Positions 10,598-43,934 of a stretch of DNA of 64,000 bases are shown piece after piece. Below the pieces are notes generated by a model. That model searched no databases. It saw nothing but the letters and a program-made list of their open reading frames with translations, and was not told the DNA's origin. Within the stretch, counting starts at the first letter, position 1; each line of letters starts with the position of its first letter. Both the position numbers and the translations under genes were made by a program. Origin of the DNA: Thermoplasmata archaeon. GTDB lineage: Archaea > Thermoplasmatota > E2 > JACPAO01 > JAHFTW01. The stretch is taken from the NCBI GenBank assembly GCA_034667725.1, contig JAXDQS010000001.1, positions 173,593 to 237,592 of the forward strand, written 5' to 3'.

Positions 10598-11779
10598 ATG
10601 GCGCCCCGCGCCCATTCCGTCCTCATGCGCCGCGTCCTCGCCCTCATGCTCGCCCTCGCGCTCGTGCCCGCGCCAAGCTTGGCCGAACCTGCGTCCCTTC
10701 CCGACCTTCGGATCGTCGAGCTGCTGCCCGAGCCCGACACCGCCCTTGGCCAGCGCGAGTTCGTGGAAATCTGGAACGCCGGCAACGCCAGCGTCGAGCT
10801 AGCGGGCTGGAAGATCGGCGACAGCGGAACCAGCACCTTCGTGTTCCCGGCCTGGACCCTTGCGCCCGGCCGCAGGGTCGTCGTCTGGGGCGGGGGACCG
10901 GCCGACGCCGCGGGCCCGGCCTGGCCCGACGCCACCGTCTGGAACAACGCCGGCGACGCGGCCTACCTGCGCGCCCCGGACGGCACGCTCGTCGACTCCT
11001 TGGGCTTCGGGACCGCCCCCGCGCCTGCCGAGCCCAAGCCGCCGAAAGGCCAGTCGCTCCAAGAGGAAGCCGGAGTGTGGCGGGCGGGGACGCCGACGCC
11101 TGGGGTCGCCCCCGGCGCCGTCGCCGGCACCATCACGCTGGCCATCGCCAACGCGCCCCCGACGCTCGGCTGGACCCGCCTGCCCGTCTCGGCCCGCCAC
11201 GGCGCCCTGGTCGAGGTCGCATTCACGGTCGGCGACCCGAACGGCGACGCCGACGTCGCGGCGTGGTCGTTGCACGCGGCGGGCGTCCAGGTCGCCCACG
11301 GGACTGCCGCCGGCTCCCAGGCGGCGAGCTTCGCGGCGCCTGCCGTGGGCGCGGCGCTCGACCTGCTGCTCACGGCGCGGGACGGGCTCGGCAGCAACGC
11401 CACCTTGGCCGCTCGGCTGGACCTGCGCGACAGCGACCTCGGCGTCACGTTCCCCGACGGGCCGGTCAGGTTCGAGGCCGTGCCGGGCGCCGCGCAGGCG
11501 CTGGCCGTGGGCCGGCTTCGGCTCGACAACGCCGGCGCCAGCCCGGTGGTTCCGCTGCTGGACGTCTCCCAGTTCCGCGCCACCGCTGCCGCCTTCGACC
11601 CGGAAGGCCGCCTCCTGCTGGGCTGGGACGACGCATGGCATCCCTACACGGGGCCGCTCACGCCGTTGGCCGCCATCCCGCCCGGCGGCGTCCTCGACCT
11701 CCGGTTGCGGCTGGACGGCGTGCCGTCGCAACTGCCGGTCGGCAGCTACGGCGCCAGCTTCACGGTGGTGCCCGCATGA
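10598..11779 (+). CDS. Secreted lamin-tail-domain (LTD) protein
   Basis: Signal peptide MAPRAHSVLMRRVLALMLALALVPAPSLA. The LTD signature is RIVELLPEP…EFVEIWNAGNASVELAGWKIGD…G, followed by a Pro-rich linker and a beta-rich C-terminal region. Confidence 0.6.
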   Translation: MAPRAHSVLMRRVLALMLALALVPAPSLAEPASLPDLRIVELLPEPDTALGQREFVEIWNAGNASVELAGWKIGDSGTSTFVFPAWTLAPGRRVVVWGGGPADAAGPAWPDATVWNNAGDAAYLRAPDGTLVDSLGFGTAPAPAEPKPPKGQSLQEEAGVWRAGTPTPGVAPGAVAGTITLAIANAPPTLGWTRLPVSARHGALVEVAFTVGDPNGDADVAAWSLHAAGVQVAHGTAAGSQAASFAAPAVGAALDLLLTARDGLGSNATLAARLDLRDSDLGVTFPDGPVRFEAVPGAAQALAVGRLRLDNAGASPVVPLLDVSQFRATAAAFDPEGRLLLGWDDAWHPYTGPLTPLAAIPPGGVLDLRLRLDGVPSQLPVGSYGASFTVVPA

Positions 11780-12357
11780 TTGCCGCCCTCGCCGCCGCCA
11801 TCGTCCTCCAGCCGGTCCTGGCCGAGCCGGCCGACGTGCGCCTGGTCGCGGCCGGCACCGGCGACGCGCCCATCGACTGGCTGGTGGACGGCGCCTTGGC
11901 CGCCACGACCCAGGACCGCCAGCCGGCCACCGTCCATCTGGCCGCCGGCTACCATACCGTCGCCGCGCGCAGCGCCAGCCCGACGCCATGGCGCGTCGTG
12001 GCCCGCCCCGACCCGCCTGGCCCCGGCTTGGTCTACGTGCCGGCGTGGACCGGCGCAAGCGACGGGGCCCCGCCTGCGGCGGCCCCGGTCCCAGCCGCGC
12101 CGGCCCTGACGCTGTTGGCTTGCCTTTTGACCTCGATGGCCGTGCGGCGCGCGTGCACATCGACCCCTGGGGCTCCTCGCAGTACCAGGACTATGCCAGG
12201 CTCCGCACCGAGTTCGGCATCGGCGCCTTCGGGCCCGAGGAGTGGGGCGCCTTCCGCGACGCGCACCGGCTGTTCCGGCGCAACGTGGTCTTCGGGCACC
12301 GCGACTTCGAGCGGGTGGCGGACGCCGTGCGGGGGCAGGATCCTTGGTCCGTCATGA
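11776..12357 (+). CDS. Small secreted/membrane protein; 3' end undefined (runs into trpS in another frame)
   Basis: ATG overlaps the upstream stop (ATGA). N-terminal hydrophobic segment MIAALAAAIVLQPVLA and a C-terminal hydrophobic + RR segment (…ALTLLACLLTSMAVRRA, near 12165). No stop codon occurs until 12357, overlapping trpS by ~240 nt. This is either a frameshift or a genuine overlap. Confidence 0.3.
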   Translation: MIAALAAAIVLQPVLAEPADVRLVAAGTGDAPIDWLVDGALAATTQDRQPATVHLAAGYHTVAARSASPTPWRVVARPDPPGPGLVYVPAWTGASDGAPPAAAPVPAAPALTLLACLLTSMAVRRACTSTPGAPRSTRTMPGSAPSSASAPSGPRSGAPSATRTGCSGATWSSGTATSSGWRTPCGGRILGPS

Positions 12358-15256: not shown

Positions 15257-17497
15257 TTGGTGGTCGCCTCGCGCTGCGTCGCCGTCCTGCTTGCCTTGGC
15301 CGTGGCCACCCTCCTGGTGCCCCCCGCCACCGCGCCCCTCCCGCCCGGCTGCTCGCTTGGCACCTTCGTGGAGGTCGCGACCCCGGCCGACGGCAGCACC
15401 GTCAGCGGCCCCGCCAGCGTCGCCGGCACGAGCGCCTTGTGCGGCGACGCCAACAACGACGGCTTCGTGGTGGTCGCCGTCACGGACACCGGCATCAACC
15501 CCTACAACCCCGACTTCGGCCGGGTCCCGGGCCAACCCACGGGCCACCCTAGCAGCTACGTCGACGCGTTCCCGTCCGGCATGGCGACCCTCACCCCCAG
15601 CTGCACCGCCACCTCGGGCATCGTCGCCGCCTGCGCCAGCGACTTTGCCGGCGTCGCCACCGGCACGCCCTACTGGATCGAGGGCACCAAGGTCATCGCC
15701 GCCATCAGCTTCGACCCCTACGGCGCGGTCCCCATCCTGGACGAGAACGGCCACGGCACCGCCAGCGCCTCGGTCGCCATCGGCAACACGAACGGCCTCT
15801 GCCCCGCCTGCCTCCTGGTCGTGGTCGAAGGCCTGCTCGACGAAGGGGTCGCCTGGGCCGCCAGCCAGCCTTACGTCGACATCATCACCAACTCTTGGGT
15901 GTCCGCCGCGGCCGGGCTGGCCACCAACGTCGGGGGCGCCGAGATTCCCGAGACCAAGGCCCTGGTCGAGGAGGGCGGGTCGGTGCTGTTCGCCGCCGGC
16001 AACGGCCACGAGAACATGTTCATCACGCCGATGCAGACCTACGAGTCCGGCTACACCGGCGTCGACTGGCACATGGTCGTGGGCGCCGTTTTCCCCGGCG
16101 ACACCAGCGTCCTCGGCTCCGGCAAGCCCGTCCACGTCTCCAGCTACGGCGCCGCGGTCCCGTCCGCCTGCCACGACGACGCCAGCTCCTCCTGCTTCCA
16201 CAGCGGCACCAGCGCCGCCACACCCCAGGTCGCCGGCGCCCTCGGCCACGTCCTCACCAAGGCCAAGCGGCTCCTGGACAGCAAGCACGAAGGCCCCGAA
16301 GGCACGGTCCTCATCGCGGGCGAGCCGTTCGGCGTCGCGGCCAAGGGCGACCTCGTGCCCGGCAACCAGTACCTCGACGACGGCCTGCTGACCCGCCAGG
16401 AGCTGTGGAACCTCGTGCTCCGCACGGCGGCGCCCCTGAGCGCCACGCCCGACCCGCTCTACTCCCCGCCCTCCATCGGCCTGCCCGCCAGCCCGGTCGA
16501 CCACGGCTACGCCGGCTACGGTGTGGTCAACCAGGCCAGCCGCGACGACGCCATCGACCGCCTCGCCGCCGGCTCCGACCTCCCCGACACCACCGACGTG
16601 GACGACTTCATCCGCCAAGACTCCGAGGTCCGCGTCGCCTACTGGGGCCCATGGGCCGAGAGCAAGATGGGCACCAACATCGGCGCCGCCGGCGTCCCGC
16701 CCGGCGGGCCCCCGCTGCCGCCGGCCCTCAAGCTCAAGGTCAACGGCCTGCCCGCCGGCACGACCACGCCCGACGCCATGGGCGGCTGGGACCTGCCGGT
16801 GGACTTCGGCGCGTTCCCCGCCGTCGCCGGCGCCTACGTGGTGCGCGCCGAGTACGCCGGCGTGTCGGACGTCGTCACCTACCTCGCCCCGACGGGCGGC
16901 GGCGGAGGCGGCGGCGCCAGCCCCACGCCCGACGAGCCGGCCGCGACCACCGCCACGACGCCCCCGGCCGACCTCGACGGCGACGGGCACCCCGACGGGC
17001 TCGACGACTGCCCGAGCGTCGTCGACCCCGACCAGTCCGACCTCGACCGCGACGGCGCCGGCGACGCCTGCGACGACGACCGCGACGGCGACACCATCGG
17101 CAACGCCATGGACCGCTGCCCGTCCGCCCCCGACCGGAGCCAGGCGGACCTCGACGGCGACGGCAAGGGCGACGCCTGCGACGACGACCTCGACGGCGAC
17201 GGCGTGCGCAACGCCGCCGACAACTGCCCGTCCGACCGCAACGCCGACCAGCGCAACAGCGACGGCGACCCGCCCGGCGACGCCTGCGAGGCCGCCTTCG
17301 GCCCGCCGCAGGACTCGGGCATCCCGCTCGGGGCGCCCGCCGAGGCCCGCGCCGCCGAGGCCCGCGCGGCCGACGCGGCGCCCGCCAAGGCCGCCAACCT
17401 GGAGTTCGTGCTCGCCATGGGGCTCATCGCCGGCGTTTTGACCTGCGCCCTGCTCGCCGTCCTCGTGGCCGCGCGGCGCAGGAAGCGGGACGAGTGA
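15257..17497 (+). CDS. Subtilisin-like S8 serine protease with C-terminal thrombospondin-type-3 repeats and TM anchor
   Basis: Catalytic triad contexts VVAVTDTGI (Asp), DENGHGTASAS (His) and HSGTSAATPQVAG (Ser). Four or more DxDxDG…C TSP3-like repeats (DLDGDGHPD…CDDDRDGD…). The C-terminus is a hydrophobic helix + RRRKRDE. Confidence 0.85.
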   Translation: MVVASRCVAVLLALAVATLLVPPATAPLPPGCSLGTFVEVATPADGSTVSGPASVAGTSALCGDANNDGFVVVAVTDTGINPYNPDFGRVPGQPTGHPSSYVDAFPSGMATLTPSCTATSGIVAACASDFAGVATGTPYWIEGTKVIAAISFDPYGAVPILDENGHGTASASVAIGNTNGLCPACLLVVVEGLLDEGVAWAASQPYVDIITNSWVSAAAGLATNVGGAEIPETKALVEEGGSVLFAAGNGHENMFITPMQTYESGYTGVDWHMVVGAVFPGDTSVLGSGKPVHVSSYGAAVPSACHDDASSSCFHSGTSAATPQVAGALGHVLTKAKRLLDSKHEGPEGTVLIAGEPFGVAAKGDLVPGNQYLDDGLLTRQELWNLVLRTAAPLSATPDPLYSPPSIGLPASPVDHGYAGYGVVNQASRDDAIDRLAAGSDLPDTTDVDDFIRQDSEVRVAYWGPWAESKMGTNIGAAGVPPGGPPLPPALKLKVNGLPAGTTTPDAMGGWDLPVDFGAFPAVAGAYVVRAEYAGVSDVVTYLAPTGGGGGGGASPTPDEPAATTATTPPADLDGDGHPDGLDDCPSVVDPDQSDLDRDGAGDACDDDRDGDTIGNAMDRCPSAPDRSQADLDGDGKGDACDDDLDGDGVRNAADNCPSDRNADQRNSDGDPPGDACEAAFGPPQDSGIPLGAPAEARAAEARAADAAPAKAANLEFVLAMGLIAGVLTCALLAVLVAARRRKRDE

Positions 17498-18420
17498 GCC
17501 GCGGCGGCCCCGCCGGCCTCTTCCCCGTCCTGGCGGCGCTGCTCTTGGCGGTGCCGCTGTCGGGCTGCTCCGGCGCCGACTCCGGCCGCGAGGCAGCGCT
17601 CGGCAGCCTCCGGTTCCCCGCCACGATGCGGGTCGCGACCACGCCCGACGACCCGTTCGAGGCCGTCGGCGACCTGCGCGTCGCCTGGCAGGGCACGGTG
17701 TTCGCGATCGCCTCCGAGGGGGAGGGCGACCTGGCCCGCCGCAGCGTCGTGGACGGGGCGCTCGCCTACACCACCAACCAAGGCATCGCCTGGACCCGGC
17801 ACCCCTGGCCCGAGAGCCTGGGCACCGTGAGCGCCCGCCTCCTGCTGTGGAACGTGCGCGCCCTGGCCGAGGACCCCGCGCTCGCGATGACGGTCGAGGA
17901 CACCGCCGAGGGCCGCAACCTGACGTTCGCCGGCACGCTGGTCCGGGGCGTCCGCGAGTACCCGGTGCGCCTGGAGCTGGGGGTCCGCGGCGACGACGTC
18001 GTGTGGGCCCGCCTGGACGCGCCCGCCGGACGTGAATCGCCATTCACGTTTCGCCCCGTCGAGGGGTTCCCGTTCCCCGCGCAGGCCCCCGCCGCCAGCC
18101 GGACGCCGGACGAGGCCTCCACCGGCGAACGGGCCAGCCACCCGTCCCACGTCCAGATCCTGGGCTGGATCCAGGACTACCGCCAGACCCGCGGCACGCT
18201 GCCCCCCGAGCCCAGCCCCGACGCGCTCCGGCTCCAGCTGCTCGCCTCCGGCAAGGAGTGGCCCCGCAACGCCTTCGACGGCCAGCCCATCGCCAACCGG
18301 CGCGCCTCCGGCCACTTCGAGTGGACCCGCTGCGGCGACCAGGACGGCGACTACCGCGGCCTCGGCCACGACGGCATCCTGGTCCAGCAGGTGTTCGGGG
18401 CGGGCTGCAAAACCCTATAA
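17494..18420 (+). CDS. Hypothetical lipoprotein
   Basis: GTG start overlapping the protease stop (GTGA). Signal peptide with lipobox LSGC (MSRGGPAGLFPVLAALLLAVPLSGCSG). 308 aa with no recognisable catalytic motif. Confidence 0.5.
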   Translation: MSRGGPAGLFPVLAALLLAVPLSGCSGADSGREAALGSLRFPATMRVATTPDDPFEAVGDLRVAWQGTVFAIASEGEGDLARRSVVDGALAYTTNQGIAWTRHPWPESLGTVSARLLLWNVRALAEDPALAMTVEDTAEGRNLTFAGTLVRGVREYPVRLELGVRGDDVVWARLDAPAGRESPFTFRPVEGFPFPAQAPAASRTPDEASTGERASHPSHVQILGWIQDYRQTRGTLPPEPSPDALRLQLLASGKEWPRNAFDGQPIANRRASGHFEWTRCGDQDGDYRGLGHDGILVQQVFGAGCKTL

Positions 18421-18522
18421 CCTGCACGCCAAGTTGCCTCTTTGCCCCAGAGGCACGGCCCTGCCGCGAACCTGGGGAAAGTCGGTGTTGCCTTGCCTGT
18501 CCGGGACCGTCCCATCGCCGCG

Positions 18523-21500
18523 ATGCTCGCCGTGGCCTTCCTCGCCCAGGCGTTGGCCCTGCCGTTCTCGTTCGTGGTGGCCCCCGTCGACGCCCAGGCG
18601 CCCCCGCCCCCGCTCCCGGTCAGCCCCGCCTTCGGCGCCTACGGCAGCTCCACCTGGGTCCAGTACACCCTGCCGGCGCCCGCCCAAGGCGGCGAGCCGT
18701 CCATCGGCGTCGCCCACGGCCTGGACGGCGGCACGACCGCCATGGTGCAGCCCCGCACCTCCGAATGGAGCGTCGCGTGGGACGACGCCGTCCCCGCCGT
18801 GGCGACCTACACCGACGTGACCTCGCCGTTCTCGCTCCCGCTCGGCTTCGACCCCATCCTCTACACCAGCCCCGAGACCGGCCGCACCTGGGCCGGCGAG
18901 CTGGAGGTCCCCGCCCTGGTGGCCGGCGCCCCCTCCACGGTCGGCAACCCCGTCCTGCCCCCCAACAGCTGCCTCAACATCCCGCCGACCCCGACCGTCC
19001 CCGGCGTCCACGGCAGCCGCACCATCCTGGTCTGCAACAGCGCCGCCACCACCTACGCCGGCTGCAGCAACATGTCCTACACCGACGACAACGGCGCCAA
19101 CTGGGTCCCCATGGTCGACCCCTGCTCGCTGCCCTCCTGGGACCACCAGAGCATCGGCGCCGGCCCCTGGGCGGCGCCCGTCCCCGCCCTCGCCAGCTAC
19201 CCGCAGGCGGTCTACTACTGCGCCCAGCAGGGCTACTTCGGCACCTCGCTGTGCTGGATCTCCTACGACGGCGGCCTCAGCTTCGTGCCCACCGAAGGCG
19301 CCCCCGACCAGACCGGCGTCTGCTCCGGCCTGCACGGCCACGTCCGCGTCAGCCGCGTCGACGGCACCGCCTACCTGCCCTACAAGAGCTGCGGCGGCCT
19401 CACCGGGTTCGCGGTCACCACCGACAACGGCGCCACCTGGAACATGCGCACCATCCCGTACGCGGCCACCGGCACCGGCTACTTCGACCCCTCCATCGGC
19501 ATCGCAGCCGACGGCACCATCTACGTCGGCATGGCCGAGGAAGGCAACCCCGGCATCGCCGGCGCGGACCCCGGCGCCTACATCTCCGTCAGCCACGACA
19601 AGGGCGTCACCTGGGACGTGCTGGGCACGAACGTCGCCGCCCTGGCCGGCCTGGAGCGCGCCCAGTTCGCCGAGGTCATCGCCGGCGACCCCGACCGCGC
19701 CGCCTTCGCGTTCCTCGGCTCCCCCTCCAACGACCCGAGCGACACCTGCGCGGCCGCCTCCGGCAGCCACGTCTGGCACATGTACGTCGCCATGACCTAC
19801 GACGGCGGCCTGAGCTGGGACGTCCAGCAGGGCACGACCGACCCCGTCCAGCGCGGCGGCATCTGGCCCGGCGGCGGCGGGGCCTCCTGCCGCAACATGC
19901 TCGACTTCAACGACATCGCCCTCGACGTCCACGGCCGCGTCCTCGTCGCCTTCACCGACGGCTGCACCGGCCCCTGCACGGCGGCCGGCGGCACGTACGC
20001 CACCTCCACCGACAACGACGTCGCCGTGCTGCGCCAAAGCACCGGCCGCGGCCTGTTCAAGAGCGAGGACATCCTGTTCCCCGACCCGCCGGCGCCGTGC
20101 GCGCCGCTCACCGACCCGCGCGTCGCCTTCCTCGACCCCGGCGACGGCGACTTCATCGAGACGAGCCTCCCCACCTGGACCGGCGAGGTCGACCGCCAGC
20201 CCCACGGCAACCCCCTCGCGGCGCACGCCAACGGTCCCTACTTCGGCAAGGTCGGCGCCGACATCCCCCTGAACGGCACCGCCTCCTGCTTCACCAGCGC
20301 GCTCGACGGCTACGGCTGCGAGTGGACCTCCCTCAGCGCCGTCGCCCCCAGCTTCACGCCGAGCGCCTACGACTGCCTCCCCGACATCGTCTACGGCGCC
20401 GTGGGCGTCTACCTCCTGCAACTCAAGGTGACGGACCTGGCCACCATGGCCACCGCCATCGACCTGACCCTCGTCACCGTCACGGACGCCGTGCCCGCGG
20501 TCGCGCGCTGCCCCGCCTCGCCCCTCGACAGCATCCTGGTGGACGACGACCCGGACCTCGACCGCGCCACCTTCGGCGACCCGGTCCAGCACCCCGCCGG
20601 CGTCCAGGAGATCGAGTGCTTCGGCGCCCGCTACGACGCCGGGGCCCAGGAGCTCGAGCTGTTCCTCGACGTGGCGGACCACCTCAAGCCCACGCACGGC
20701 GCCCTCACGGTGGCCGACGACGGCGCCATGGAGACCTACTGGTTCCGCTTCACCCCGAACTGGGGCACCTACGCCGGCATCGAGCAGATCCTCGAGGTCG
20801 AGTGGTACGGCCCCAGCAGCGCCACGCCGCTCGCCTGCTTCCTGGCCGCGTCCCCGATGGCAGGGGCCGGCGGCGCGGGCTTCCGCGCCAGCAGCCCCGA
20901 CCCGGGCCTCGGCAACGTGATGTGCGACCCGACCCGGCCCTACCCCGCCGTCTCCTGGGCCGGCGACCGCCTCACCGTCGAGATCCTGATGTCCGACCTC
21001 GGCGCCGCCGCGGCCGGTGACCTGGTCGAGGGCCTCTACGCCTGGACCTGGCACGAGGAGACCGACTTCTCCTGGAACGCAGCCCCCAGGACGCACGTGG
21101 GCGTCTACGGCTACAGCCCCAACCCGCTGGGCGGCTTCGGCAGCGGCACCGGCCGCACCACGGCCCTCGGCTTCGACGGCACCAACCAGGTCTGCATGCC
21201 GTCCACGGCCACGTGCGACGGCTTCTACCACGACGACGACTTCAGCCCCGACTGCCGCCGCGCCGACGTCCGGTTCCTGACCGCCACCACCATCGGCCTC
21301 GTCGGCTCCTGCAACCCTGCGACGCCGACGACCTGCTGCGCGGCGCCCGCCGGCGGCCTGCTCACGGGCCCCGGCGCCGGCCTGTCCGCGCCCAGCCCTG
21401 GCCCGCTCGGCCTGGTGCCGGCCCTCATCGGCACCCTGGCGGACGCGGTGGCGGGCATCGACCTCGCCCACAGCGCCGACTGGGAGCGCGAGGCGGGCCA

Positions 21501-22629
21501 CCTGCTGCCGCCCTACGCGGTCGCCAGCCCGACGCCGCCCAGGCTCCCGAGCCTGGCGGACGTGCTGGACACGCTGGAGGCCTGGTCGGCCCCGGCGCCG
21601 CCCGCCTTGACGCCGCCGACGCCCCCCGTCGCGCTGCCGCTGCCGGTGTCGCTGCCGCCGACGGCCCTCCCGTCCGCCTACGGCCTCAGCCTGCTCCGCA
21701 CGCCCGGCGCGGGCACGTTCATGTCCGGCAGCGGCTCGTGCACGACCTGCACTCCGCCGCCGTTCTTCCTGCCACCCGCGCCCCCGCCGCCGGCCAAGGA
21801 GTACGTCGTCGTCTACGCCGACTGGAGCGCCCCCGTGGCCGCCGCCGTCGACACCAGTGTTGCCACCCGCGACGACTGGGCCGTCCTCCTGGACCCCTTG
21901 GACACCAGCCTGAACGGCGCCCACACCCTGTTCGTCGAGTGGTACGACGCCTGGGGCAGCACCCTCCTGGACACGGACCAGATCACGGTCTACGTCAACC
22001 TGCTCGACGGCGTCGAGTCCACGGTCCTCCCGCCCCGCGACGGCGCCCCCCGCGACTCCAACAGCAGCTTCGACCTCGACGGCGACACCGTCCGGGACGG
22101 CGACGACAACTGCGCCACCACGCCGAACCTGAACCAGACCGACCTGGACGGCGACCTGTTCGGCGACGCCTGCGACCGCGACGACGACGCCGACGGCGTG
22201 GTCGATCCCCTCGACAACTGCGACCTCTTCATCAACCCGGGCCAGTCCGACCTCGACGCGGACGGCCGCGGCGACGCCTGCGACGGCGACCTCGACGGCG
22301 ACGGCCGCCTCAACCCGGCCGACAACTGCCCCACCGTGCCCAACGCCAGCCAGGCCGACGCCGACCGCGACCTCTTGGGCGACCCGTGCGACCCCGACCG
22401 GGACGGCGACGGCATCCCCAACCTCGCCGACCGCTTCCCCGACGGCGCCAACGGCGCCACGGCGCTCGACCCGCTGGACGCGGGCAGCCGCAGCCGCCTC
22501 GGCGGCGGCGCGGTGGCCCCCCACGCCACCGGCCCGGGCCTTGCCGGCCCCCTGGCCGCCACCGGCCTGGCCGTACTTTTGGCCGGCCTGGCCATCGTGG
22601 CGGCGGTGCTGCGCCGGCGTCCGGCCTGA
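18523..22629 (+). CDS. Large secreted BNR/Asp-box beta-propeller protein with TSP3 repeats and PGF-CTERM-like C-terminal anchor
   Basis: Signal peptide MLAVAFLAQALALPFSFVVAPVDAQA. Multiple Asp-box-like S.D.G.TW motifs (SYTDDNGANW, TTDNGATW, SHDKGVTW, TYDGGLSW). Six or more C-terminal TSP3-type DxDxDG…C repeats. The C-terminus is …GPGLAGPLAATGLAVLLAGLAIVAAVLRRRPA. Confidence 0.75.
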   Translation: MLAVAFLAQALALPFSFVVAPVDAQAPPPPLPVSPAFGAYGSSTWVQYTLPAPAQGGEPSIGVAHGLDGGTTAMVQPRTSEWSVAWDDAVPAVATYTDVTSPFSLPLGFDPILYTSPETGRTWAGELEVPALVAGAPSTVGNPVLPPNSCLNIPPTPTVPGVHGSRTILVCNSAATTYAGCSNMSYTDDNGANWVPMVDPCSLPSWDHQSIGAGPWAAPVPALASYPQAVYYCAQQGYFGTSLCWISYDGGLSFVPTEGAPDQTGVCSGLHGHVRVSRVDGTAYLPYKSCGGLTGFAVTTDNGATWNMRTIPYAATGTGYFDPSIGIAADGTIYVGMAEEGNPGIAGADPGAYISVSHDKGVTWDVLGTNVAALAGLERAQFAEVIAGDPDRAAFAFLGSPSNDPSDTCAAASGSHVWHMYVAMTYDGGLSWDVQQGTTDPVQRGGIWPGGGGASCRNMLDFNDIALDVHGRVLVAFTDGCTGPCTAAGGTYATSTDNDVAVLRQSTGRGLFKSEDILFPDPPAPCAPLTDPRVAFLDPGDGDFIETSLPTWTGEVDRQPHGNPLAAHANGPYFGKVGADIPLNGTASCFTSALDGYGCEWTSLSAVAPSFTPSAYDCLPDIVYGAVGVYLLQLKVTDLATMATAIDLTLVTVTDAVPAVARCPASPLDSILVDDDPDLDRATFGDPVQHPAGVQEIECFGARYDAGAQELELFLDVADHLKPTHGALTVADDGAMETYWFRFTPNWGTYAGIEQILEVEWYGPSSATPLACFLAASPMAGAGGAGFRASSPDPGLGNVMCDPTRPYPAVSWAGDRLTVEILMSDLGAAAAGDLVEGLYAWTWHEETDFSWNAAPRTHVGVYGYSPNPLGGFGSGTGRTTALGFDGTNQVCMPSTATCDGFYHDDDFSPDCRRADVRFLTATTIGLVGSCNPATPTTCCAAPAGGLLTGPGAGLSAPSPGPLGLVPALIGTLADAVAGIDLAHSADWEREAGHLLPPYAVASPTPPRLPSLADVLDTLEAWSAPAPPALTPPTPPVALPLPVSLPPTALPSAYGLSLLRTPGAGTFMSGSGSCTTCTPPPFFLPPAPPPPAKEYVVVYADWSAPVAAAVDTSVATRDDWAVLLDPLDTSLNGAHTLFVEWYDAWGSTLLDTDQITVYVNLLDGVESTVLPPRDGAPRDSNSSFDLDGDTVRDGDDNCATTPNLNQTDLDGDLFGDACDRDDDADGVVDPLDNCDLFINPGQSDLDADGRGDACDGDLDGDGRLNPADNCPTVPNASQADADRDLLGDPCDPDRDGDGIPNLADRFPDGANGATALDPLDAGSRSRLGGGAVAPHATGPGLAGPLAATGLAVLLAGLAIVAAVLRRRPA

Positions 22630-22758
22630 GCCGCCGAAGCCGGGTACGGGTCCCACCAGACTTGTTCGATGGGGTTATCAAAAGGTGCCGTCATCGAAGG
22701 CCGCCCCGCCCAGAGAGGGACACCCAGGTCCCTCCTGGCAGTACCGAGGCTTCCGCCC

Positions 22759-25700
22759 ATGCCATCGACTTCCCGCGCGCGCACGTCATTCATCCTGGCC
22801 CTCCTCCTGGTGGCGGGCGCCTTGCCTGCGCTGCCGGTGGCCACCGCGGCCGCGCCGGTCGTGACGAGCGCCAACCTGCTGGACGAGGACAACAACGGCC
22901 ACCTCGACGCCGTGCTGCTGACGTTCGACCAGGCCATCCGGTCGGACAGCGTGCGGCCCAGCGACTGGACCCTCGGCTCGGCGGTCGCGCGCAGCGTCGA
23001 GCGCCAAAGCAGCACCCAGTTCAAGCTGTTCTTCCAGGAGGCGCTGGCCTTGGACGGCAACTCCAACGCCATCAACATCGCCTACACCCGCGAGGCCGAC
23101 CAGCCGCTCGAGAACCTGGCGACCCCCTTCGAGGACTTCACGGCCAGCACTGTGCCCGCCTCCGCCAAGAAGGACATGGCCAAGCCCATCCTGATGGCGG
23201 CCTACGCCGTCGAGGCCACCAACTACATCGTCGCCGTCTTCAGCGAGGCCGTCACCGACAACGCGGGCGCCATCCTGACCCATGACGAGTTCGTCCTCAC
23301 CGCGGGCGGCGCCGGCGCCCCCGCCATCGACACCACCGTCGCCGTCACCGCCCTTGGCTCCCCGGCCCGCGTGTTCCGCATCCCCCTGAACGCCGCCTGG
23401 ACCACGGCCCAGCTGGCGCACGCCACCAAGCCCACGCTGGCGATCTCCGGCACCAACCTGGTCAAGGACCTTGCCACCCCCGCCAACAACAACCCCACCG
23501 GCATGGCGGCCGTCCCCGTCGGCGCGCCCTTCATCGAGCGCGTCATGGCCAACCCCGGCGACGACCTCGTGGTCGTCGAGTTCAACGGCCCCGTGGCCGA
23601 CTCGACCGGCACCGCCCCGCTCCCGGCCACCTCGAGCGGCGACCTGACGCTGCGCTTCCAGGAAGGCTCCGGCGGCGGCGCCATCGTCACCACCGACATG
23701 GTGAACCCCGTCTTCTCCGACCGCGTCCAGCTCCGGGTCGACGCCCCGCTGCGCCCCGCCGACTTCGCCGCCGGCACCATCAGCAAGATCGTCGCCCAGA
23801 CGGACAAGGTGTTCGCGTGGAAGGGCGCCTCCAGCGTCGCGAGCTACAAGGTCCCCGCCGGCGCCGCCGGCAACCTGGCCGACGCCGACGTCTACACCAA
23901 CCCCTACCCGACCCGCCTGGAGACGGTGGACCGCGACCTCAACGGCTGCATCGACGCCATCCAGATGACCTGGAACGACGACATCCTCGACGCCAGCCTG
24001 GCCGCCAGCACCGGCTGGGTCGTCGTCTTCCCCAAGAAGGCCTCCGGCACCCCGCTGCCCACCACGCCGCCCGCGCCCGGCATCGTCGGCGCCACCCTGG
24101 TGAGCGCCATCACCGGCGCCGGCGTCTCCCCGACCCTGTCGCCCGGCGTGGACGACCGCGTCACCTTCCTGACCTTCACCGAGACCGACGCCGCCACCGG
24201 CTGCGACCTGTCCCTGCCGGCCCCCCTGGTGGGCAGCACCGGCCCCGCCGGCGTCCGCCTCCTGCCCCGCGTCTCGCACTGCGACGGCCTCGACTCCGGC
24301 TGCACCGGTCTCAGCCCGACCGACCGCGCCGGCCGCGGCATCGGCGCCTCGCGCGGCGCCTTCAACGACGCCGGCGTCCTGTTCCGCCTCCCGGTGATCG
24401 ACAGCGCCCGCCCCGTTTTGATGACGGCGGCGACCCGCGACCTGCCCTCGTCCCCCGACGGCCAGGTCGACCAGATCCTCCTCAGCTTCTCGGAGCCGAT
24501 GAAGCTCGGCACCCTCAAGCAGGCCCAGTGGAACGTCCGCGTGCCCGCCAACCAGGCCCAATGCCCGGTCCCCGCCAGCACGGCCTACACCGTCACCTCG
24601 GTCGGCTCCGCCTCCGGCACCTCCGGCGACACCGAGTCCCTGCTCCTGCTGGGCATCCAGCCCTCGGGCACCCCGGACACCGGCTGCATCCTCGACATCG
24701 CCTACGGCACCACGCCCAACGCCCTCGAGAGCAGCAACGGCCAGGTCCTGCCCGCCATCCCGGCCAACAGCCTCATCCTGACGACCGCCACCGCCACCGC
24801 CGGCGGCGCCAACAGCATCACCGCCGCCGCCACCAACTTCGCCACCGCGGGCGCCCTCACCGGCATGCGCGTCGACGTGAGCCGCGCCGGCACGCCGCTC
24901 GGCTCGTTCACCGTGACCGGGGTCGCCGGCACCACCCTGACGTTCTCGCCCGCCGTGGCGGCCGCCAGCGCCCCCATCGCCGCGGGCGACGTCGCCACGG
25001 TCTACCGCGAGCGCGACGGCGCCGGCCCCGTCCTCTTGGACGGCCGGCTCGTCGGCGCGGTCGGCTCCCGCTTCGCCACCGCCACCTTCAGCGAGGCGGT
25101 CCTCGGCGTCAACGGCAACGCCGTCACCAACACCGACCTGACCTACAAGAACAACGGCGCGGGCGGCGCCTCCGGCATCAGCTGCGTCGCCACCCCGAGC
25201 TACACCTCGGGCACCTGCACCCCCGACCCGGCCGTCACCACGAACCCGGCCCAGTTGTCGCTCACCCTGAACGCGGTGCTCGCCGGCGGCGACGTCGGCA
25301 CGGGCAAGGACTGCGTCCAGATCGTCAACTACATCCCGGACGAGAACAGCCTGAACCCCGCCAACCCCGGCGTGCGCGACGCCGCCGGCAACGTCGGCCA
25401 GCCGCTCGAGCCCTCGGGCCCCTGCCGCATCTTCTCCACGGGCGGCACCGTCGCCACCGTGCTCGCCATCGAGACGCTCGACACCAGCAACCCGCCCAAC
25501 GGCGCCATCGACGCCATCCGCGTCACCTTCACGGGCCCCGTCAACGACGACTTCACCGATGGCGTCGCCAAGTGGAAGGTCAAGTTCGGCACCACCACGG
25601 CCACCATCAACACCGTCCAGAGCGGCGGCAACTGCGGCGGCAGCACGCTGACCCCCGACGTCGCCAACGACGCCGTGGTGTTCCTCTGCATCGCGGAGCT

Positions 25701-28700
25701 CACCGACACCTCCGACCCGGCCAACCCGCTCATCCCCAACACCGGCGCCCTGCCCCTGGTGTCCTACTCGGGCACCCTGCTGGCCGGCGCCACCGACGGC
25801 CTGCCGGTCGCGACCTTCACGGACCGCGCCGCCACCGACGCCGCCCTGCCGGTCCTGATCACCGTGCGCGGCGGCGCCGGCCGCAACACCGTCGAGCTGC
25901 GGTTCTCGGAGGACGTCGTGGACGCCACCACCAAGGGCCCGCTCAAGGCCTCGAACTTCCTCTACTCGAACGGCAACGGCGGCTCCTCGACCTGCTCCAG
26001 CGGCGCCTCCAACATCGTGGACGTGCTGCCGGTCACCGGCTTCAACGACCGCTTCACCGGTGTGCTCAACACGCCGGCCGGCCAGCCGGGCCTGCACTAC
26101 GACGACATCGTCGGCTGCCCCACCGTCGCCAGCCGCGACGAGGTGCGCGCCCTGGCCTCGAGCATCATCGAGAAGGTCGGCCTGCGCGCCATGACCGACA
26201 GCACCCCGCGCGACATCCAGGACATCTTCGGCCCCGACATCCTGTCGGCCCGCTTCATCGACGCCCCAGCCCAGGCTGGCGCCGTCACGGGCGCGGACGG
26301 CACCATCGACGCCGTCGAGGTCCGGTTCCGCGAGTACGTCTCCGACGCCGCGGCCGCCTTCGGCACCAGTGCCACCGTCACCGGCCAGTGGGCCGTCAAG
26401 GTCAACGACGGCAGCCTCAAGACCCTCAAGGTCAAGGCCGTCGTCTCGAGCCAGAACGGCGTCCTCGGCGACAGTTGCACGGACACCCAGGCCCGCCCCC
26501 TCATCCTCTGGCCGGGCGAGGTCCAGCCGCCCACCAGCGGCCCCTCCAGCGTCAACGGCGTGGACGACGACACCCTGTTCCTCTGCCTGGAGAACACCGT
26601 CGGCGTCTCGACCCAGGGCACCCTGGGCCTCGGCACCGGCATGGTCGGCACCCTCAGCTACGCCGCCGCCAACCCGACGGCCCGCATCAAGGACCGCAGC
26701 GGCAACGGCTTCGCCGACATCACCCTCGGCAGCGCCCGCACCGTCACCGACGGCGCCCGCCCCGTCGTCCTCAACACCTGCCGCCCCGAGGTCACCCCAG
26801 CCCTGCGCTGCACCGGCGTGTCCCCCGAGTCGGCCGACCTCGACAACGACGGCCTCGTCGACGCCCTGCGCGTCGTGCTGTCCGAGCCCGTGAAGGACGA
26901 CACCTACAAGCAGGTCGAGTGGGACCTCGGCTCCGGCTTCGCCATCACCGGCATGGACACCGGCGTCACCGTCGACGACGCCACCATCTTCCTCAAGTTC
27001 AACGAAGGCGCCACGCCGGACACCGGCCGCGGCCGCGCCTCCCAGCCGGGCCTGCCCGACCTGACGTTCAGCTCGACCGGCACGATGGCGGACCGCGCGG
27101 GCAACCGCATCCGCGCCGTCCAGTCGGGCGCGTGCGGCGCCGCCACCGACACCCACTGCGCCGACGAGCGCGACGGCGTCGAGCCCGTGGTCGTGCGCTC
27201 CCAGGCCGAGGTCGGCTCCGACCTCGTCACCATCGCCCTCAGCGAGCCCGTCCAAGGCACCGGCCCGGTCGCCAGCGGCCGCCCCATCACCACCAGCGAC
27301 ATCGCCTACCAGAACAAGGCGGGCGCGGGCGACGGCGCCACCGGCATCGTGGCCATCTCCCATGTCGCGGGCGAGTCGGTCCTCACCATCAAGCTCGACA
27401 AGAAGGTCACCGAGTTCGACCGCCTCAACGACCGCTTCGTCTTCGTGACGGGCAGCATCAAGGAGGCCCAGTGCACGGTGTCGGCCACGACGCCCTCGTG
27501 CTACCGCCAGCTCGCCATGACGCGCCTCTTTGTCCCCATCGCCTTCGCCGGCGGCGCGGACCCCAAGCCGGCCGCCATCGACGACCTGGACGCCCCCGCC
27601 GAGGACGTCACCGCGACCTCGGTCCGCCTGACCTGGACCGCCCCCGACGACACCGACCTCGCGAGCTACCAGATCTACTTCTGCGAGTGCTCGTTCGCCG
27701 GCACCATCCCGACCGGCGCCCTGACGCCCCCGACCTCGGTCGTCATCCCGACCCCGGACCCCGGCGAGGCCCAGGAGGTCGTCATCACCGGCCTCACCAC
27801 CGGCAAGACCTACAACTTCGTCATCCGCGCCATCGACAACTCCGGCAACACCGCCGAGCTGTCGAACGTCGCGACCGCCCTCGTCGAGGCCCCGGACACC
27901 GAGGCGCCCGACATGGTGTTGGCCCTCCAGGACCTCGCCGCCAGCACCCCGCTGGGCTCCGTCGCCCTCGTCTGGGACGCCCCCGGCGACGACGGCGACC
28001 AAGGCACCGTGGCCGGCTACCGCATCGCGGTCGCCGACCGCCCGATCGCGGCCAGCGACTTCGAGGACTTCGAGACGACCGACTACTCGCTCAACCCGGC
28101 CGGCCTTGCGGACGCGGGCGACACCCAGCGCGCCACCATCTTCGGGCTCATCCCCGGCGACGAGGTGTTCGTGTACATCCTCGCGTACGACGACGCCAGC
28201 CCGCCCAACGAGTCGCCCCTCAGCGGCGCCGTCCGCGCCACCGTCGGCGGCACCACCACCGACCTGGCCGACCCCGGCCCCATCACCGACCTCACGGCCA
28301 CCGCCGCCACCGACAGCACGGTGGAGCTGGAGTGGCGCGCGCCCGGCGACGACGGCCTCTCCGGCGGCCCCGTCACCGGCTACGACGTCTACTACAGCAC
28401 CGCGCCGTTCGCGTCCTCGACCCGCCCGTCCGTGCCCCGCGCCTCCGACGTCACGCTGTCGCCCCGCACCCCCACGGCCGCCGGCCTGAGCCAGCGCGCC
28501 ACCGTCGGCGGACTGGAGTCCGACACCGTGTACTACTTCATGGTCCTGGCCCGCGACGACGCGACCAAGACCAGCGCCTCGAACGTGGTCAACCGCGCCA
28601 CCCTCCCCGGCGTCGGCGAGCTGACCATCGACGACCTGTTCGCCGCCAACAAGGAGCTCAACGAGAACCTCGAGGTCACCCACGAGGACGGCATCAACAT

Positions 28701-29388: not shown

Positions 29389-29398
29389 CCCATCCTGC

Positions 29399-29600
29399 CG
29401 AGCCGGGGGCCGCCGCGCGCGTGAGCGCGCAGGACCGAGCACGCCCGCCTGCGCGAGCATCGCGAGCGCACGGGCCGAGGGCGCGGCCCCCTCGCCGTGG
29501 GGGCGCAGGGGGCGAAGCCCCCGCGCAGGCGGAACGAACCGCAGTTCGTTCCGAGCCGAACCTGTTCCTTGTCGTTTTAAATACTTCCCGGGATGGAGCG
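29399..29600 (+). repeat. Conserved GC-rich intergenic element, copy A (terminator-like hairpin + BRE/TATA), between giant genes 1 and 2
   Basis: ~200 nt aligning with 34291-34500 at roughly 80% identity by eye (CGAGCCGGGGGCCGCC.GCGCGTGAGCGC.CAGGAC…). A 9-bp-stem hairpin GGAACGAAC-cgcag-GTTCGTTCC lies at 29531-29552 and is followed by CCGAGCCGAACCTGTTCCTTGTCGTTTTAAATAC. Confidence 0.7.
29575..29584 (+). promoter_or_regulatory. Archaeal TATA box (TTTTAAATAC) with upstream purine-rich BRE-like CG, promoter of giant gene 2
   Basis: AT-rich TTTTAAATAC in an otherwise ~70% GC context, ~74 nt upstream of ATG 29658. An identical box precedes giant gene 3. Confidence 0.5.
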
Positions 29601-29657
29601 GACCAAGCACCGGACGCCGGACCTTAGGGCCCGGCTTCCGCCCGCAGGTTGATCCCC

Positions 29658-34196: not shown

Positions 34197-34290
34197 AGCC
34201 GAGACGGCCCTTTTTCCTTTCCTTCTCCCTGTTTTCGTCCCCACTGGACACAGATTCCACAGATTCGCTGGAAGCTGGCGGGTCGAGCGT

Positions 34291-34500
34291 CGAGCCGGGG
34301 GCCGCCGTGCGCGTGAGCGCACAGGACGAGCGGGCCGGCCCGTGCGAGCGAAGCGAGCGCGCCGGCGCGAGGAGCGGCCCCCAAGCCGGGGGGTCGCAGG
34401 GGCGCAGCCCCCGTTCCCAACAGGCGGGACGAACCGCGCAGCGTGTTCGTCCCGAGCCGAATCTGTTCCTTGGCGTTTTAAATACCCCCAGGATTGGATG
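34291..34500 (+). repeat. Conserved GC-rich intergenic element, copy B, between giant genes 2 and 3
   Basis: Same element as copy A. The hairpin GGGACGAAC-cgcgcagcgt-GTTCGTCCC at 34426-34453 shows compensatory A:T→G:C changes on both stem arms relative to copy A. It is followed by CCGAGCCGAATCTGTTCCTTGGCGTTTTAAATAC. Confidence 0.7.
34476..34485 (+). promoter_or_regulatory. Archaeal TATA box (TTTTAAATAC), promoter of giant gene 3
   Basis: Identical TATA sequence to the giant-2 promoter, ~36 nt upstream of ATG 34521. The conserved flanks are GTTCCTTG[G/T]CGTTTTAAATAC. Confidence 0.5.
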
Positions 34501-34520
34501 CCTTACCCCGCTGGTGGCGT

Positions 34521-42791: not shown

Positions 42792-43934
42792 ATGCAAATG
42801 ATGGCCACCCCTGAGCACCAGCTCGTCCGCCAGACGATGCGCGAGTTCGCCGAGCGCGAGGTCGCCCCCATCGCGGCCCGCATGGACCAGGAGGACTGGT
42901 GGCCGGACACGCTGGTCCCGCGCATGGCCGAGCTGGGGCTTTTGGGCATGACCGTGAAGCAGGAGGACGGCGGCGCCGGGCTCGACACGGTCGCCTACAA
43001 CATGGCCATCGAGGAGATCGCCCGCGTCTCGGGCTCGCTTGCCCTCAGCCTTGCGGCCCACAACGGCCTGGGCATCAGCCACATCTACACCCAAGGCAAC
43101 GCGGCGCAACGGGAAACCTACGTCCGCCCGATGGCGCAGGGCAAGGTCATCGGCGCCTGGTGCCTCACCGAGCCGGGCGCGGGCTCGGACGCGGCGGGGC
43201 TCGCGACGACGGCGGTGCGCGACGGCGATGGCTGGCGGCTCGATGGCCAGAAGCAGTTCATCACCAACGGCCACATCGCCGGCGTCTTCACCATCATGGC
43301 CAAGACCGACCCGGCGAAGGGTCCGGCGGGCATCACGGCGTTCGTGGCCAAGGCCGGCGCCAAAGGCCTCCACCTCGGCAAGAAGGAGGACAAGCTCGGC
43401 ATGCGCGGCAGCATCACGAGCCAACTCTACTTCGAGGACCTCCACGTCCCGGACGAGGGCGTCGTCGGCAAGGTCGGCGAGGGCTTCCTCGGCACCATGA
43501 AGACCTTGGACGCCGGCCGCATCGCCATCGGCAGCCTCGCCCTCGGCCTCGCCCAAGGCGCCTTCGACGCCAGCCTCGCCTACGCCCAAGAGCGCAAGCA
43601 GTTCGGCAAGCCCATCGCGCACAACCAGGCCATCCAGTGGAAGCTCGCCGACATGGCGACCCAGATCGACGCCGCCCGCCTGCTCTTGCACCGCGCCGCG
43701 ACCCTCAAGGACGAGGGCAAGCCGTTCACCCGCGAAGCCAGCATGGGCAAGCTCTACGCCAGCGAGGTCGCCATGTGGGCCACCACGCAGGCCATCCAGG
43801 TCCACGGCGGCAACGGCTACACCCGCGACTACCCCGTCGAGCGCATGTTCCGCGACGCCAAGCTGTGCGAGATCGGCGAGGGCTCGTCCGAGGTTCAGCG
43901 GATGGTCATCGCGAAGTCGCTCGGTTTGCGTTAG
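42792..43934 (+). CDS. Acyl-CoA dehydrogenase (short/medium-chain type)
   Basis: 380 aa with full-length ACAD architecture. Conserved motifs [10 protein letters not shown], …FITNG… and the catalytic-base context …[24 protein letters not shown]…. Confidence 0.9.

What the first reader, a model, noticed from the sequence alone, without database searches (positions are those of the whole stretch)
15257..22629. Family of TSP3-repeat surface proteins with C-terminal hydrophobic helix + Arg cluster
The S8 protease, the BNR-propeller protein and the distant PKD protein at 43931-45940 all carry arrays of thrombospondin-type-3 Ca-binding repeats (D.D.DG..D.CP…D..Q.D.D.DG.GD.CD). All end in a ~20-aa hydrophobic segment followed by RRR(K/P/S). 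The BNR protein has GPGL in front of the helix, reminiscent of the haloarchaeal PGF-CTERM/ArtA signal. The others lack PGF. The small ORF at 11776 ends the same way. This may represent a lineage-specific C-terminal sorting signal and an unusually rich use of TSP3 calcium-binding modules in an archaeon.
Basis: partly seen in the sequence, partly recalled or inferred. Interest (0 to 1): 0.55.

Follow-up and report, generated by a model that had tools for sequence, protein, structure and literature searches.

The report
Membrane-anchored archaeal surface proteins with calcium-binding repeats
Three surface proteins of a high-GC soil Thermoplasmata archaeon really do share a thrombospondin-type calcium-binding cassette next to a C-terminal membrane helix, but the helix looks like an ordinary membrane anchor, not a new protein-sorting signal.

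Summary
The core observation holds. The S8 protease (15260-17497 +), a sialidase-like propeller protein (18523-22629 +) and a PKD protein (43931-45940, minus strand) each carry a Pfam-significant TSP type-3 array. The arrays match solved COMP/thrombospondin repeats at E about 1e-40. Each array is followed by a short linker, a 23-29-residue uncharged helix and RRRx.

The claim about the small ORF at 11776 is wrong. It has no stop after RR and runs out of frame over the TrpRS gene.

The sorting-signal reading is not supported:
- 19 such tails from this lineage share no signature motif (best tripeptide in 4 of 19, no better than shuffles).
- None passes any NCBIfam C-terminal sorting model, PGF-CTERM included. 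A GlyGly-CTERM control passes.
- "PGL" is not conserved in orthologues.
- The pre-helix region is not Ser/Thr-rich.
- Three neighbouring giant proteins have the same helix plus Arg/Lys cluster followed by a conserved cytoplasmic zinc ribbon, so there it is a true stop-transfer anchor.
- No sortase-like gene lies in about 73 kb.

TSP3 proteins are abundant in this lineage, but they are already reported in Thermoplasmatota and ammonia-oxidising archaea (AOA).

Best reading: type I anchored ectoproteins on a calcium-binding, membrane-proximal stalk. This is a new member of a known kind, of low to moderate interest.

The parts
15260..17497 (+). S8 subtilase-TSP3 protein (745 aa; = GenBank QOD77_167). 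The JGI call starts 3 nt earlier, at 15257.
   Evidence: 100% identical database protein P0001. Pfam Peptidase_S8 at residues 71-338 plus TSP_3. Catalytic D76/H165/N248/S318 are invariant in 5 orthologues.
15260..15334 (+). N-terminal signal peptide of the S8 protein (VVASRCVAVLLALAVATLLVPPATA)
   Evidence: Hydrophobic segment at residues 1-27. Read directly from the sequence.
16970..17287 (+). TSP type-3 cassette of S8 (residues 571-676; 6 Ca loops, 6 Cys)
17288..17404 (+). Ala/Gly/Pro-rich linker of S8 (39 aa; 1 Ser/Thr in the last 30)
17405..17494 (+). C-terminal TM helix (FVLAMGLIAGVLTCALLAVLVAA) plus RRRKRDE tail of S8
   Evidence: AF2 predicts a helix at 707-744, the only region of the model with pLDDT about 72.
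17497..18420 (+). Lipobox protein (..AVPLSGC) of unknown function lying between the two TSP3 genes. Its start overlaps the S8 stop.
   Evidence: Sequence. No Pfam or NCBIfam hit. The position between the S8 and propeller genes is conserved in L004, L006 and L007.
18523..22629 (+). Sialidase-like (BNR) propeller-TSP3 protein (1368 aa; = QOD77_169). A longer TTG start at 18442 is possible.
   Evidence: P0157 is 100% identical. Pfam TSP_3 91 bits; BNR is sub-threshold. Homologues carry PF13088.
22072..22389 (+). TSP type-3 cassette of the propeller protein (106 aa, same loop spacing as S8)
22390..22524 (+). Linker of the propeller protein
22525..22626 (+). Uncharged segment ATGPGLAGPLAATGLAVLLAGLAIVAAVL plus RRRPA tail
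   Evidence: No PGF-CTERM model hit even at E<=10.
43931..45940 (-). PKD/Big_9-TSP3 protein (669 aa)
   Evidence: Pfam PKD_4 65 bits, Big_9 33 bits, TSP_3 63 bits, on the minus-strand translation only.
44108..44503 (-). TSP type-3 array of the PKD protein (residues 480-611)
43934..44035 (-). Uncharged segment [29 protein letters not shown] plus RRRSS tail
22669..39284 (+). Comparators: three tandem giant fn3 proteins (22669-29388, 29628-34196, 34482-39284). Their single TM helix plus RRR/RRK/RGR cluster is followed by a 60-105 aa cytoplasmic tail that ends in a conserved CPxC...CPxC zinc ribbon.
11776..12357 (+). It looks coding up to about 12117. Its 'hydrophobic + RR' (about 12085-12138) is not followed by a stop, and the frame then runs over TrpRS.
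   Evidence: It is not called in the JGI annotation.

Best explanation
These are type I (bitopic) membrane-anchored ectoproteins of a high-GC Thermoplasmata archaeon. Each is exported through an N-terminal signal peptide. Each displays a different working ectodomain: an active subtilase, a sialidase-like beta-propeller, or PKD/Ig adhesion domains. Each is held on the cell by one C-terminal stop-transfer helix. The short Arg cluster stays in the cytoplasm, following the positive-inside rule. It is Arg rather than Lys because the genome is 72% GC.

Between the ectodomain and the membrane sits a conserved cassette of about three thrombospondin type-3 repeats plus a short low-complexity linker. 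By homology with COMP/thrombospondin and with bacterial OmpA TSP3 repeats, the cassette binds several Ca2+ ions through its DxDxDGxxD loops and is stapled by intra-repeat disulfides. It would then act as a calcium-stiffened, membrane-proximal stalk, possibly also bridging neighbouring envelope proteins through Ca2+.

Shown here: domain content, homology, order of the parts, and absence of a sorting motif. Inferred: topology, persistence of the anchor, Ca2+ binding, and the stalk role. My confidence is about 0.75 for 'plain TM anchor, no dedicated sorting' and about 0.45 for the specific stalk role.
For: - TSP3 identity: Pfam 63-91 bits; matches to the solved structures COMP 3fby and TSP-2 1yo8 at E 1e-35 to 1e-42.
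- The order ectodomain, TSP3, linker, helix, basic tail is fixed in 19 of 19 anchored TSP3 proteins from the window, from S8 and propeller orthologues, and from loci L001, L004 and L005.
- S8 and the propeller protein share a 106-residue cassette with identical loop spacing.
- No motif: no alignment column has one residue in more than 9 of 19 tails. The best tripeptide (LGL) occurs in 4 of 19, and 894 of 1000 shuffles reach that.
- No NCBIfam sorting model reaches its cut-off for any of 14 TSP3-protein tails, whereas the bacterial homologue P0006 passes GlyGly-CTERM at 22.1 vs 15.5 bits. Bacterial propeller homologues show plain LPxTG tails.
- The three modules are similar at DNA level (66-79%) only over the TSP3 part, never over the helix.
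- The same helix plus R/K cluster in the three giant paralogues is followed by a conserved cytoplasmic zinc ribbon. Arg clusters also follow TM helices of an FtsX-like permease and of a small membrane protein. R/K is 2.8 in the window.
- No exosortase, archaeosortase, rhomboid or CPBP family appears among the window genes or the 9 kb to the left.
Against: - A helix plus a C-terminal Arg cluster is also two thirds of every known tripartite sorting signal (bioRxiv 10.1101/2023.06.07.544157). Sequence alone therefore cannot prove that the anchor persists.
- The cytoplasmic tails are very short (2-12 residues), as in sorting signals.
- Only about 73 kb of a multi-megabase genome was searched for a processing enzyme.
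- Ca2+ binding and the stalk function are inferred from homology only.
- The AF2 model was uninformative (mean pLDDT 34).
- Two S8 orthologues (L001, L002) carry C-terminal TSP3 repeats without any helix, so the anchor is not obligatory.
Confidence: 0.72

Rival explanations
1. A cryptic, lineage-specific C-terminal sorting signal. An unidentified intramembrane protease (archaeosortase-, rhombosortase- or CPBP-like) recognises the helix plus Arg cluster with only a degenerate motif. It removes the helix and attaches a lipid or releases the protein.
For: - The tails have two of the three parts of known sorting domains: a helix and an Arg cluster within 2-12 residues of the C-terminus (definition in bioRxiv 10.1101/2023.06.07.544157).
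- Gly/Pro followed by Trp or a bulky hydrophobic residue is frequent at the start of the helix.
- The rest of the genome could not be searched.
Against: - No conserved signature motif among paralogues within one genome or among orthologues.
- All NCBIfam CTERM models fail while the control passes.
- The Gly/Pro-Trp feature is equally present in the giant proteins, whose helix is followed by a conserved cytoplasmic domain.
- The upstream 30 residues contain only 1-4 Ser/Thr, unlike archaeosortase or CGP-CTERM substrates.
- There is no candidate enzyme in about 73 kb or in the flanks of related loci.
Confidence: 0.12
2. PGF-CTERM-type substrates of archaeosortase A, as in haloarchaea and methanogens. 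The GPGL of the propeller protein would be a variant PGF motif.
For: GPGL lies just before the hydrophobic stretch of the propeller protein. P0158 has NPGLGL.
Against: - TIGR04126 (PGF-CTERM) is not reported for any tail even at E<=10.
- S8 and PKD have no P-G-aromatic motif.
- PGL is absent from 3 of the 5 propeller orthologues.
- The upstream region is not Thr/Ser-rich.
- No archaeosortase gene was seen.
Confidence: 0.02
3. The anchor is an ordinary TM helix, but the TSP3 cassette is not a passive stalk. It is the functional cohesion or matrix module. It would form Ca2+-bridged contacts between envelope proteins, cells or mineral surfaces, as proposed for myxobacterial TSP3 proteins (MtsC) and for the TT3R proteins of ammonia-oxidising archaea. 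Together with the LTD, fn3, PKD and transglutaminase-like neighbours it would build a protein coat.
For: - NCBIfam's best whole-protein hit is the TSP3 part of the cell-cohesion protein MtsC (88-116 bits, far below its 350-bit cut-off).
- TT3R proteins of ammonia-oxidising archaea are discussed as matrix components (PMC6593220). Thrombospondin genes in Poseidoniales are discussed as adhesion factors (PMC6461757).
- TGase, S8, lipoprotein, propeller protein and giant fn3 proteins form a conserved gene cluster.
Against: - There is no direct evidence for cohesion.
- The strictly membrane-proximal position, beneath large ectodomains, fits a spacer better than an exposed adhesive tip.
- The cassette is short: three repeats.
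Confidence: 0.25

Closest known systems
Thrombospondin/COMP type-3 repeats (eukaryotic 'calcium wire'; PDB 3fby, 1yo8, 1ux6)
   Same: The same repeat family by sequence (E 1e-35 to 1e-42): DxDxDGxxDxxD loops and paired Cys.
   Different: There are only about three repeats. No C-terminal lectin-like domain is present for the repeats to wrap around. Here the array is followed by a TM helix. The host is an archaeon.
Bacterial TSP3-repeat envelope proteins (OmpA-family TSP3 linkers, Dai et al. 2017 as cited in PMC6593220; Myxococcus MtsC, NF047638)
   Same: A TSP3 array used as a Ca-binding envelope module close to a membrane anchor. MtsC also combines TSP3 with a C-terminal helix plus Arg cluster.
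   Different: MtsC carries the Cys-containing MYXO-CTERM motif processed by myxosortase (PMC11980579); these tails have no such motif. The scores are far below the MtsC equivalog cut-off (88-116 vs 350 bits). OmpA proteins are anchored by a beta-barrel. Among the 120 best database matches to the module, only 6 end in a helix plus basic tail.
Archaeal TSP3 (TT3R) proteins of Nitrosopumilus, and 'thrombospondin genes' of Ca. Poseidoniales
   Same: Archaeal surface proteins with TSP3 repeats. Poseidoniales belong to the same phylum, Thermoplasmatota.
   Different: Those reports rest on annotation or proteomics and do not describe a TSP3-linker-TM cassette. The ectodomains here (S8, propeller, PKD) differ from theirs.
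PGF-CTERM / archaeosortase A substrates (Haloferax S-layer glycoprotein)
   Same: A C-terminal helix plus Arg cluster on secreted archaeal surface proteins.
   Different: No PGF motif, no TIGR04126 match, no Thr/Ser-rich pre-region, and no ArtA gene seen.
Ordinary type I membrane anchors of archaeal surface proteins
   Same: A signal peptide, a large ectodomain, a single C-terminal TM helix and a short basic cytoplasmic tail. This is what the sequence shows.
   Different: Nothing essential differs. The only special feature is the near-constant TSP3 cassette next to the anchor in this lineage.

Membership tests
Thrombospondin type-3 repeat (Pfam PF02412) | HMM score above the gathering threshold (25 bits) | tested here: met
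   71.1, 90.6 and 63.1 bits for the S8, propeller and PKD proteins
Thrombospondin type-3 repeat (Pfam PF02412) | Asp-rich Ca-binding loops (DxDxDGxxDxxD) with paired Cys in each repeat | tested here: met
   5-7 loops and 6 Cys per array. 49 columns are invariant across the three modules, including the Asp and Cys positions.
Thrombospondin type-3 repeat (Pfam PF02412) | Actual Ca2+ binding and disulfide formation | not testable with these tools
   Inferred from homology to COMP and TSP-2
PGF-CTERM / archaeosortase A system | PGF signature motif abutting the TM helix (TIGR04126) | tested here: not met
   No TIGR04126 hit at E<=10 for any of 14 TSP3-protein tails. PGL is present in only 2 of 5 propeller orthologues and absent from S8 and PKD.
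PGF-CTERM / archaeosortase A system | Hydrophobic helix followed by a basic cluster at the C-terminus | tested here: met
PGF-CTERM / archaeosortase A system | Thr/Ser-rich (glycosylated) region immediately upstream | tested here: not met
   1, 3 and 4 Ser+Thr in the 30 upstream residues.
PGF-CTERM / archaeosortase A system | Archaeosortase gene in the same genome | not testable with these tools
   None among the genes of the 64 kb window or the 9 kb to its left.
Generic tripartite C-terminal sorting domain (sensu Haft) | Short signature motif shared by many otherwise unrelated proteins of one genome | tested here: not met
   Motif search on 19 tails: the best tripeptide occurs in 4 of 19, and 894 of 1000 shuffles reach that. 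No DNA or protein similarity over the helix between the three window genes.
Generic tripartite C-terminal sorting domain (sensu Haft) | Cognate multi-pass membrane protease that co-occurs with the signal | not testable with these tools
   This needs whole-genome phylogenetic profiling. No candidate was seen in the accessible loci.
Peptidase S8 (subtilase) | Pfam PF00082 above threshold, with the Asp/His/Ser triad and the oxyanion Asn | tested here: met
   45.5 bits vs 21.8. DTG, HGT, GNG and GTSAA are invariant in 5 orthologues.
BNR/sialidase-like beta-propeller | Pfam BNR or BNR_2 above threshold | tested here: inconclusive
   BNR 26.5 vs 27 bits; BNR_2 17.9 vs 31.4 bits. However, hundreds of homologues at E<1e-70 carry precomputed PF13088/PF02012.
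Type I single-pass membrane protein | N-terminal signal peptide, one C-terminal TM helix, and positive charge on the cytoplasmic side | tested here: met
   Hydropathy and sequence. Topology itself was not tested experimentally.

The most novel reading that the evidence does not exclude
The conserved island would encode an extracellular-matrix-like, Ca2+-cross-linked protein coat for soil Thermoplasmata. Its genes are the LTD protein, a transglutaminase-like lipoprotein, S8-TSP3, a lipoprotein, propeller-TSP3, and giant fn3 proteins with cytoplasmic zinc ribbons. In this reading, ectoenzymes captured from soil bacteria were grafted onto a lineage-specific TSP3-linker-TM cassette. The S8 domain is nearest to Actinomycetota and the propeller nearest to Acidobacteriota. 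The helix plus Arg tail could additionally be handled by an undiscovered sorting or shedding enzyme.
Probability: 0.12. Interest if true: 0.5.

Novelty: new member of a known kind. Interest (0 to 1): 0.2.

Why it matters
The main value is for annotation. In high-GC Thermoplasmata, a C-terminal helix followed by RRR should not be read as a PGF-CTERM-like sorting tag. The TSP3-linker-TM cassette is a useful marker for the anchored surface proteome of this uncultured soil lineage.

It also suggests that the envelope depends on calcium. It gives a clean example of unrelated ectodomains, possibly acquired from bacteria, being mounted on one shared anchoring cassette.

It does not open a new mechanism.

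Tried and rejected
- Exact look-up of the S8 protein in the contig index found nothing. The propeller protein did work.
- I searched the 5.8-billion-protein set with the three TSP3-TM modules, hoping for a census of this MAG. The result was swamped by bacterial TSP3 proteins: 2078 hits among the 8000 candidates scored, and none of the 120 best listed carries this MAG's QOD77 locus tag. It shows only that the repeat is ubiquitous.
- The AlphaFold2 model of the S8 protein from a 5-sequence alignment was unusable (mean pLDDT 34). I ran no fold search.
- Haft et al. 2012 (PMC3256604) is not held. I took the definitions from Haft's 2023 preprint instead.
- A literature search for NCBIfam's 'GGIII' label found nothing relevant. 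The GG_III-CTERM matches were all below cut-off (9-16 vs 22 bits).
- I could not obtain an archaeosortase query sequence, and I could not reach the rest of the genome. The genome-contig scan returned only three related MAGs, not this one.
- I considered recent gene conversion of the whole C-terminal module and rejected it. DNA similarity is 66-79% and confined to the TSP3 part.
- I considered contamination by a bacterial contig and rejected it. Archaeal tRNA-intron endonuclease and TFB sit on the same contig, and synteny is conserved in several MAGs.

Full report
**Source and context**

The window is 72% GC and archaeal. It encodes a tRNA-intron endonuclease, TFB, and class I aminoacyl-tRNA synthetases. 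The S8 and propeller proteins are 100% identical to GenBank proteins QOD77_167 and QOD77_169 of a 'Thermoplasmata archaeon' MAG, on a contig of 367,845 bp. The same locus occurs exactly in a 236 kb JGI metagenome contig and in a Logan assembly, so it is not an assembly artefact.

**Checking the observation**

Pfam finds TSP_3 well above threshold in three proteins:
- the S8 protease (15260-17497 +)
- the propeller protein (18523-22629 +)
- the PKD/Big_9 protein (43931-45940, on the minus strand)

phmmer against PDB sequences matches the arrays to the type-3 repeats of COMP (3fby) and thrombospondin-2 at E 1e-35 to 1e-42. Each array has six Cys and 5-7 DxDxDGxxD loops. In S8 and the propeller protein the cassette is 106 residues long with identical loop spacing.

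All three proteins have an N-terminal signal peptide. Each ends with a 24-45-residue linker, a 23-29-residue uncharged segment, and RRRKRDE, RRRPA or RRRSS. The S8 domain has its catalytic Asp, His, Ser and oxyanion Asn. The 'BNR' hits are marginally below threshold in Pfam, but hundreds of homologues carry BNR_2.

One item is wrong. The small ORF at 11776 has a 14-residue hydrophobic stretch plus RR but no stop codon there. It continues to 12357, out of frame over the TrpRS start (12120), with non-coding codon composition. The JGI gene caller does not call it.

**Is the tail a sorting signal?**

Known C-terminal sorting domains are tripartite: a signature motif, a helix, and an Arg cluster (bioRxiv 10.1101/2023.06.07.544157). 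The helix and the Arg cluster are present here. The motif is not.

I collected 19 tails of TSP3 proteins:
- the three window proteins
- four S8 orthologues
- six propeller homologues from the search (sequences), three of them full-length orthologues
- six further TSP3 proteins from related loci L001, L004 and L005

The tests gave these results:
- Aligned on the first basic residue, no column has one residue in more than 9 of 19 tails. The best tripeptide occurs in 4 of 19, a value that 894 of 1000 shuffles reach.
- The 14 TSP3-protein tails scanned against NCBIfam at E<=10 reach the cut-off of no sorting-domain model, and PGF-CTERM is never listed. The tail of the bacterial homologue P0006 passes GlyGly-CTERM, which serves as a positive control.
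- Bacterial propeller homologues show obvious LPxTG tails. A real signal is therefore easy to see in this kind of data.
- The GPGL of the propeller protein recurs in only one of its four orthologues.
- The 30 residues before the helix contain 1-4 Ser/Thr. Archaeosortase and CGP-CTERM substrates have Thr/Ser-rich stretches there.
- The three modules are similar at DNA level only over the TSP3 part (66-79%), not over the helix.

The most telling result comes from the neighbours. Three giant fn3 proteins (22669-39284) have the same kind of helix with a Gly/Pro-Trp cap and an RRR/RRK/RGR cluster. After it they continue into an acidic tail that ends in a conserved CPxC...CPxC zinc ribbon, which is also conserved in a relative. 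There the helix is unquestionably a stop-transfer anchor with the Arg cluster inside the cell.

Arg clusters also follow TM helices of an FtsX-like permease and of a small membrane protein. Arg outnumbers Lys 2.8 to 1 in this GC-rich window.

No exosortase/archaeosortase, rhomboid or CPBP protein is encoded in the window or in the 9 kb to its left, nor in the flanks of related loci.

**What is special**

The association of TSP3 with the anchor is real and typical of this lineage. 19 of the 21 TSP3 proteins I examined have the order ectodomain, TSP3, linker, helix, basic tail. The two exceptions are giant S8 orthologues in L001 and L002, which end in TSP3 without a helix. One relative has six TSP3 genes in 20 kb. 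Among the 120 best database matches to the module, which are mostly bacterial, only six end in a helix plus basic tail. Many of those sequences are fragments, so six is a lower bound.

The gene order transglutaminase-like lipoprotein, S8-TSP3, lipoprotein, propeller-TSP3, giant is conserved.

**Mechanism proposed**

The proteins are exported by Sec. The C-terminal helix stops transfer, and the Arg tail stays cytoplasmic. The TSP3 cassette folds around Ca2+ ions with intra-repeat disulfides. This follows solved COMP/TSP structures and a bacterial OmpA TSP3 structure cited in PMC6593220. The cassette then holds the enzyme or adhesion domain off the membrane as a stiff stalk, possibly with Ca-bridged lateral contacts.

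The architecture and the homology are shown. The topology, the Ca2+ binding and the stalk role are inferred.

**Comparison and novelty**

TSP3 repeats are very common in bacteria. They are already described in archaea: TT3R proteins of Nitrosopumilus (PMC6593220) and thrombospondin genes 'widespread' in Poseidoniales, which are Thermoplasmatota (PMC6461757).

The nearest analogue with a C-terminal helix plus Arg cluster is Myxococcus MtsC. MtsC carries the Cys-containing MYXO-CTERM motif processed by myxosortase (PMC11980579), which is absent here.

The finding is therefore a new member of known kinds, a TSP3 surface protein with a type I anchor, and it shows a lineage-specific preference for one cassette. 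Interest is low to moderate.

Noticed in passing
window 22669-29388, 29628-34196, 34482-39284 (+); also L003:3-1364: Three tandem giant paralogues (2239, 1522 and 1600 aa) have a signal peptide, an fn3-containing ectodomain and a single TM helix. Each ends in an acidic cytoplasmic tail with a conserved zinc ribbon (H-x-V-x-CPxC-x3-F-x-A-x-G-x2-P-x5-CPxC-x3-G-x-L). The tail matches no Pfam family and matches TIGR02098 only below threshold. A surface protein with a conserved cytoplasmic zinc ribbon is unusual and may couple the envelope to something inside the cell.
   Followed up: partly
window 13228-15207, 17497-18420, 60579-61559 (+): Three secreted proteins carry a bacterial-type lipobox (..MLSGC, ..PLSGC, ..LLAGC). 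One of them is a transglutaminase-core protein. Relatives also have lipobox proteins (L004, L005). The lineage therefore seems to use lipoprotein anchoring alongside C-terminal TM anchors.
   Followed up: partly
window 17497-18420 (+); L004:10221-11108; L006:8972-9898: A lipoprotein of about 300 aa with no family match always sits between the S8 and propeller genes. Its start overlaps the S8 stop codon, which suggests translational coupling. It could be a partner, inhibitor or chaperone of the subtilase.
   Followed up: no
window 15470-16273 (S8 domain) and 18523-20500 (propeller): Outside this lineage, the closest S8 homologues are in Streptomyces and Micromonospora (36-41% identity). The closest propeller homologues are Acidobacteriota proteins (35-43% identity), where the domain is combined with fn3/PKD/Ig domains or LPxTG tails instead of TSP3-TM. 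This suggests inter-domain transfer followed by fusion to the archaeal cassette. I built no phylogeny.
   Followed up: partly
window 11776-12357 (+) and 12120-13487 (+): The small ORF has a borderline BiPBP_C hit (26.7 vs 26.8 bits). It looks coding up to about 12117 but has no stop before 12357, so it overlaps the TrpRS gene by about 240 nt out of frame. That implies either an unusual overlap or a frameshift. A related MAG (L001:826-1473) has the same open frame.
   Followed up: partly
window 47207-52636 (+): An ORF of 1809 aa has good coding statistics, several hydrophobic segments, and no Pfam hit at all.
   Followed up: no
window 10427-11779 (+): A secreted lamin-tail-domain (LTD) protein lies upstream of the cluster and is conserved in L001 and L006. 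It has no C-terminal anchor. With fn3, PKD, TSP3 and transglutaminase, the island collects domains typical of extracellular matrices.
   Followed up: no
window 54000-58000: GC drops locally to 65-69%. The region contains an NTPase_1 gene (56969-57568, second-codon-position GC 0.34) and a DUF4062-TPR protein (53784-55763).
   Followed up: no
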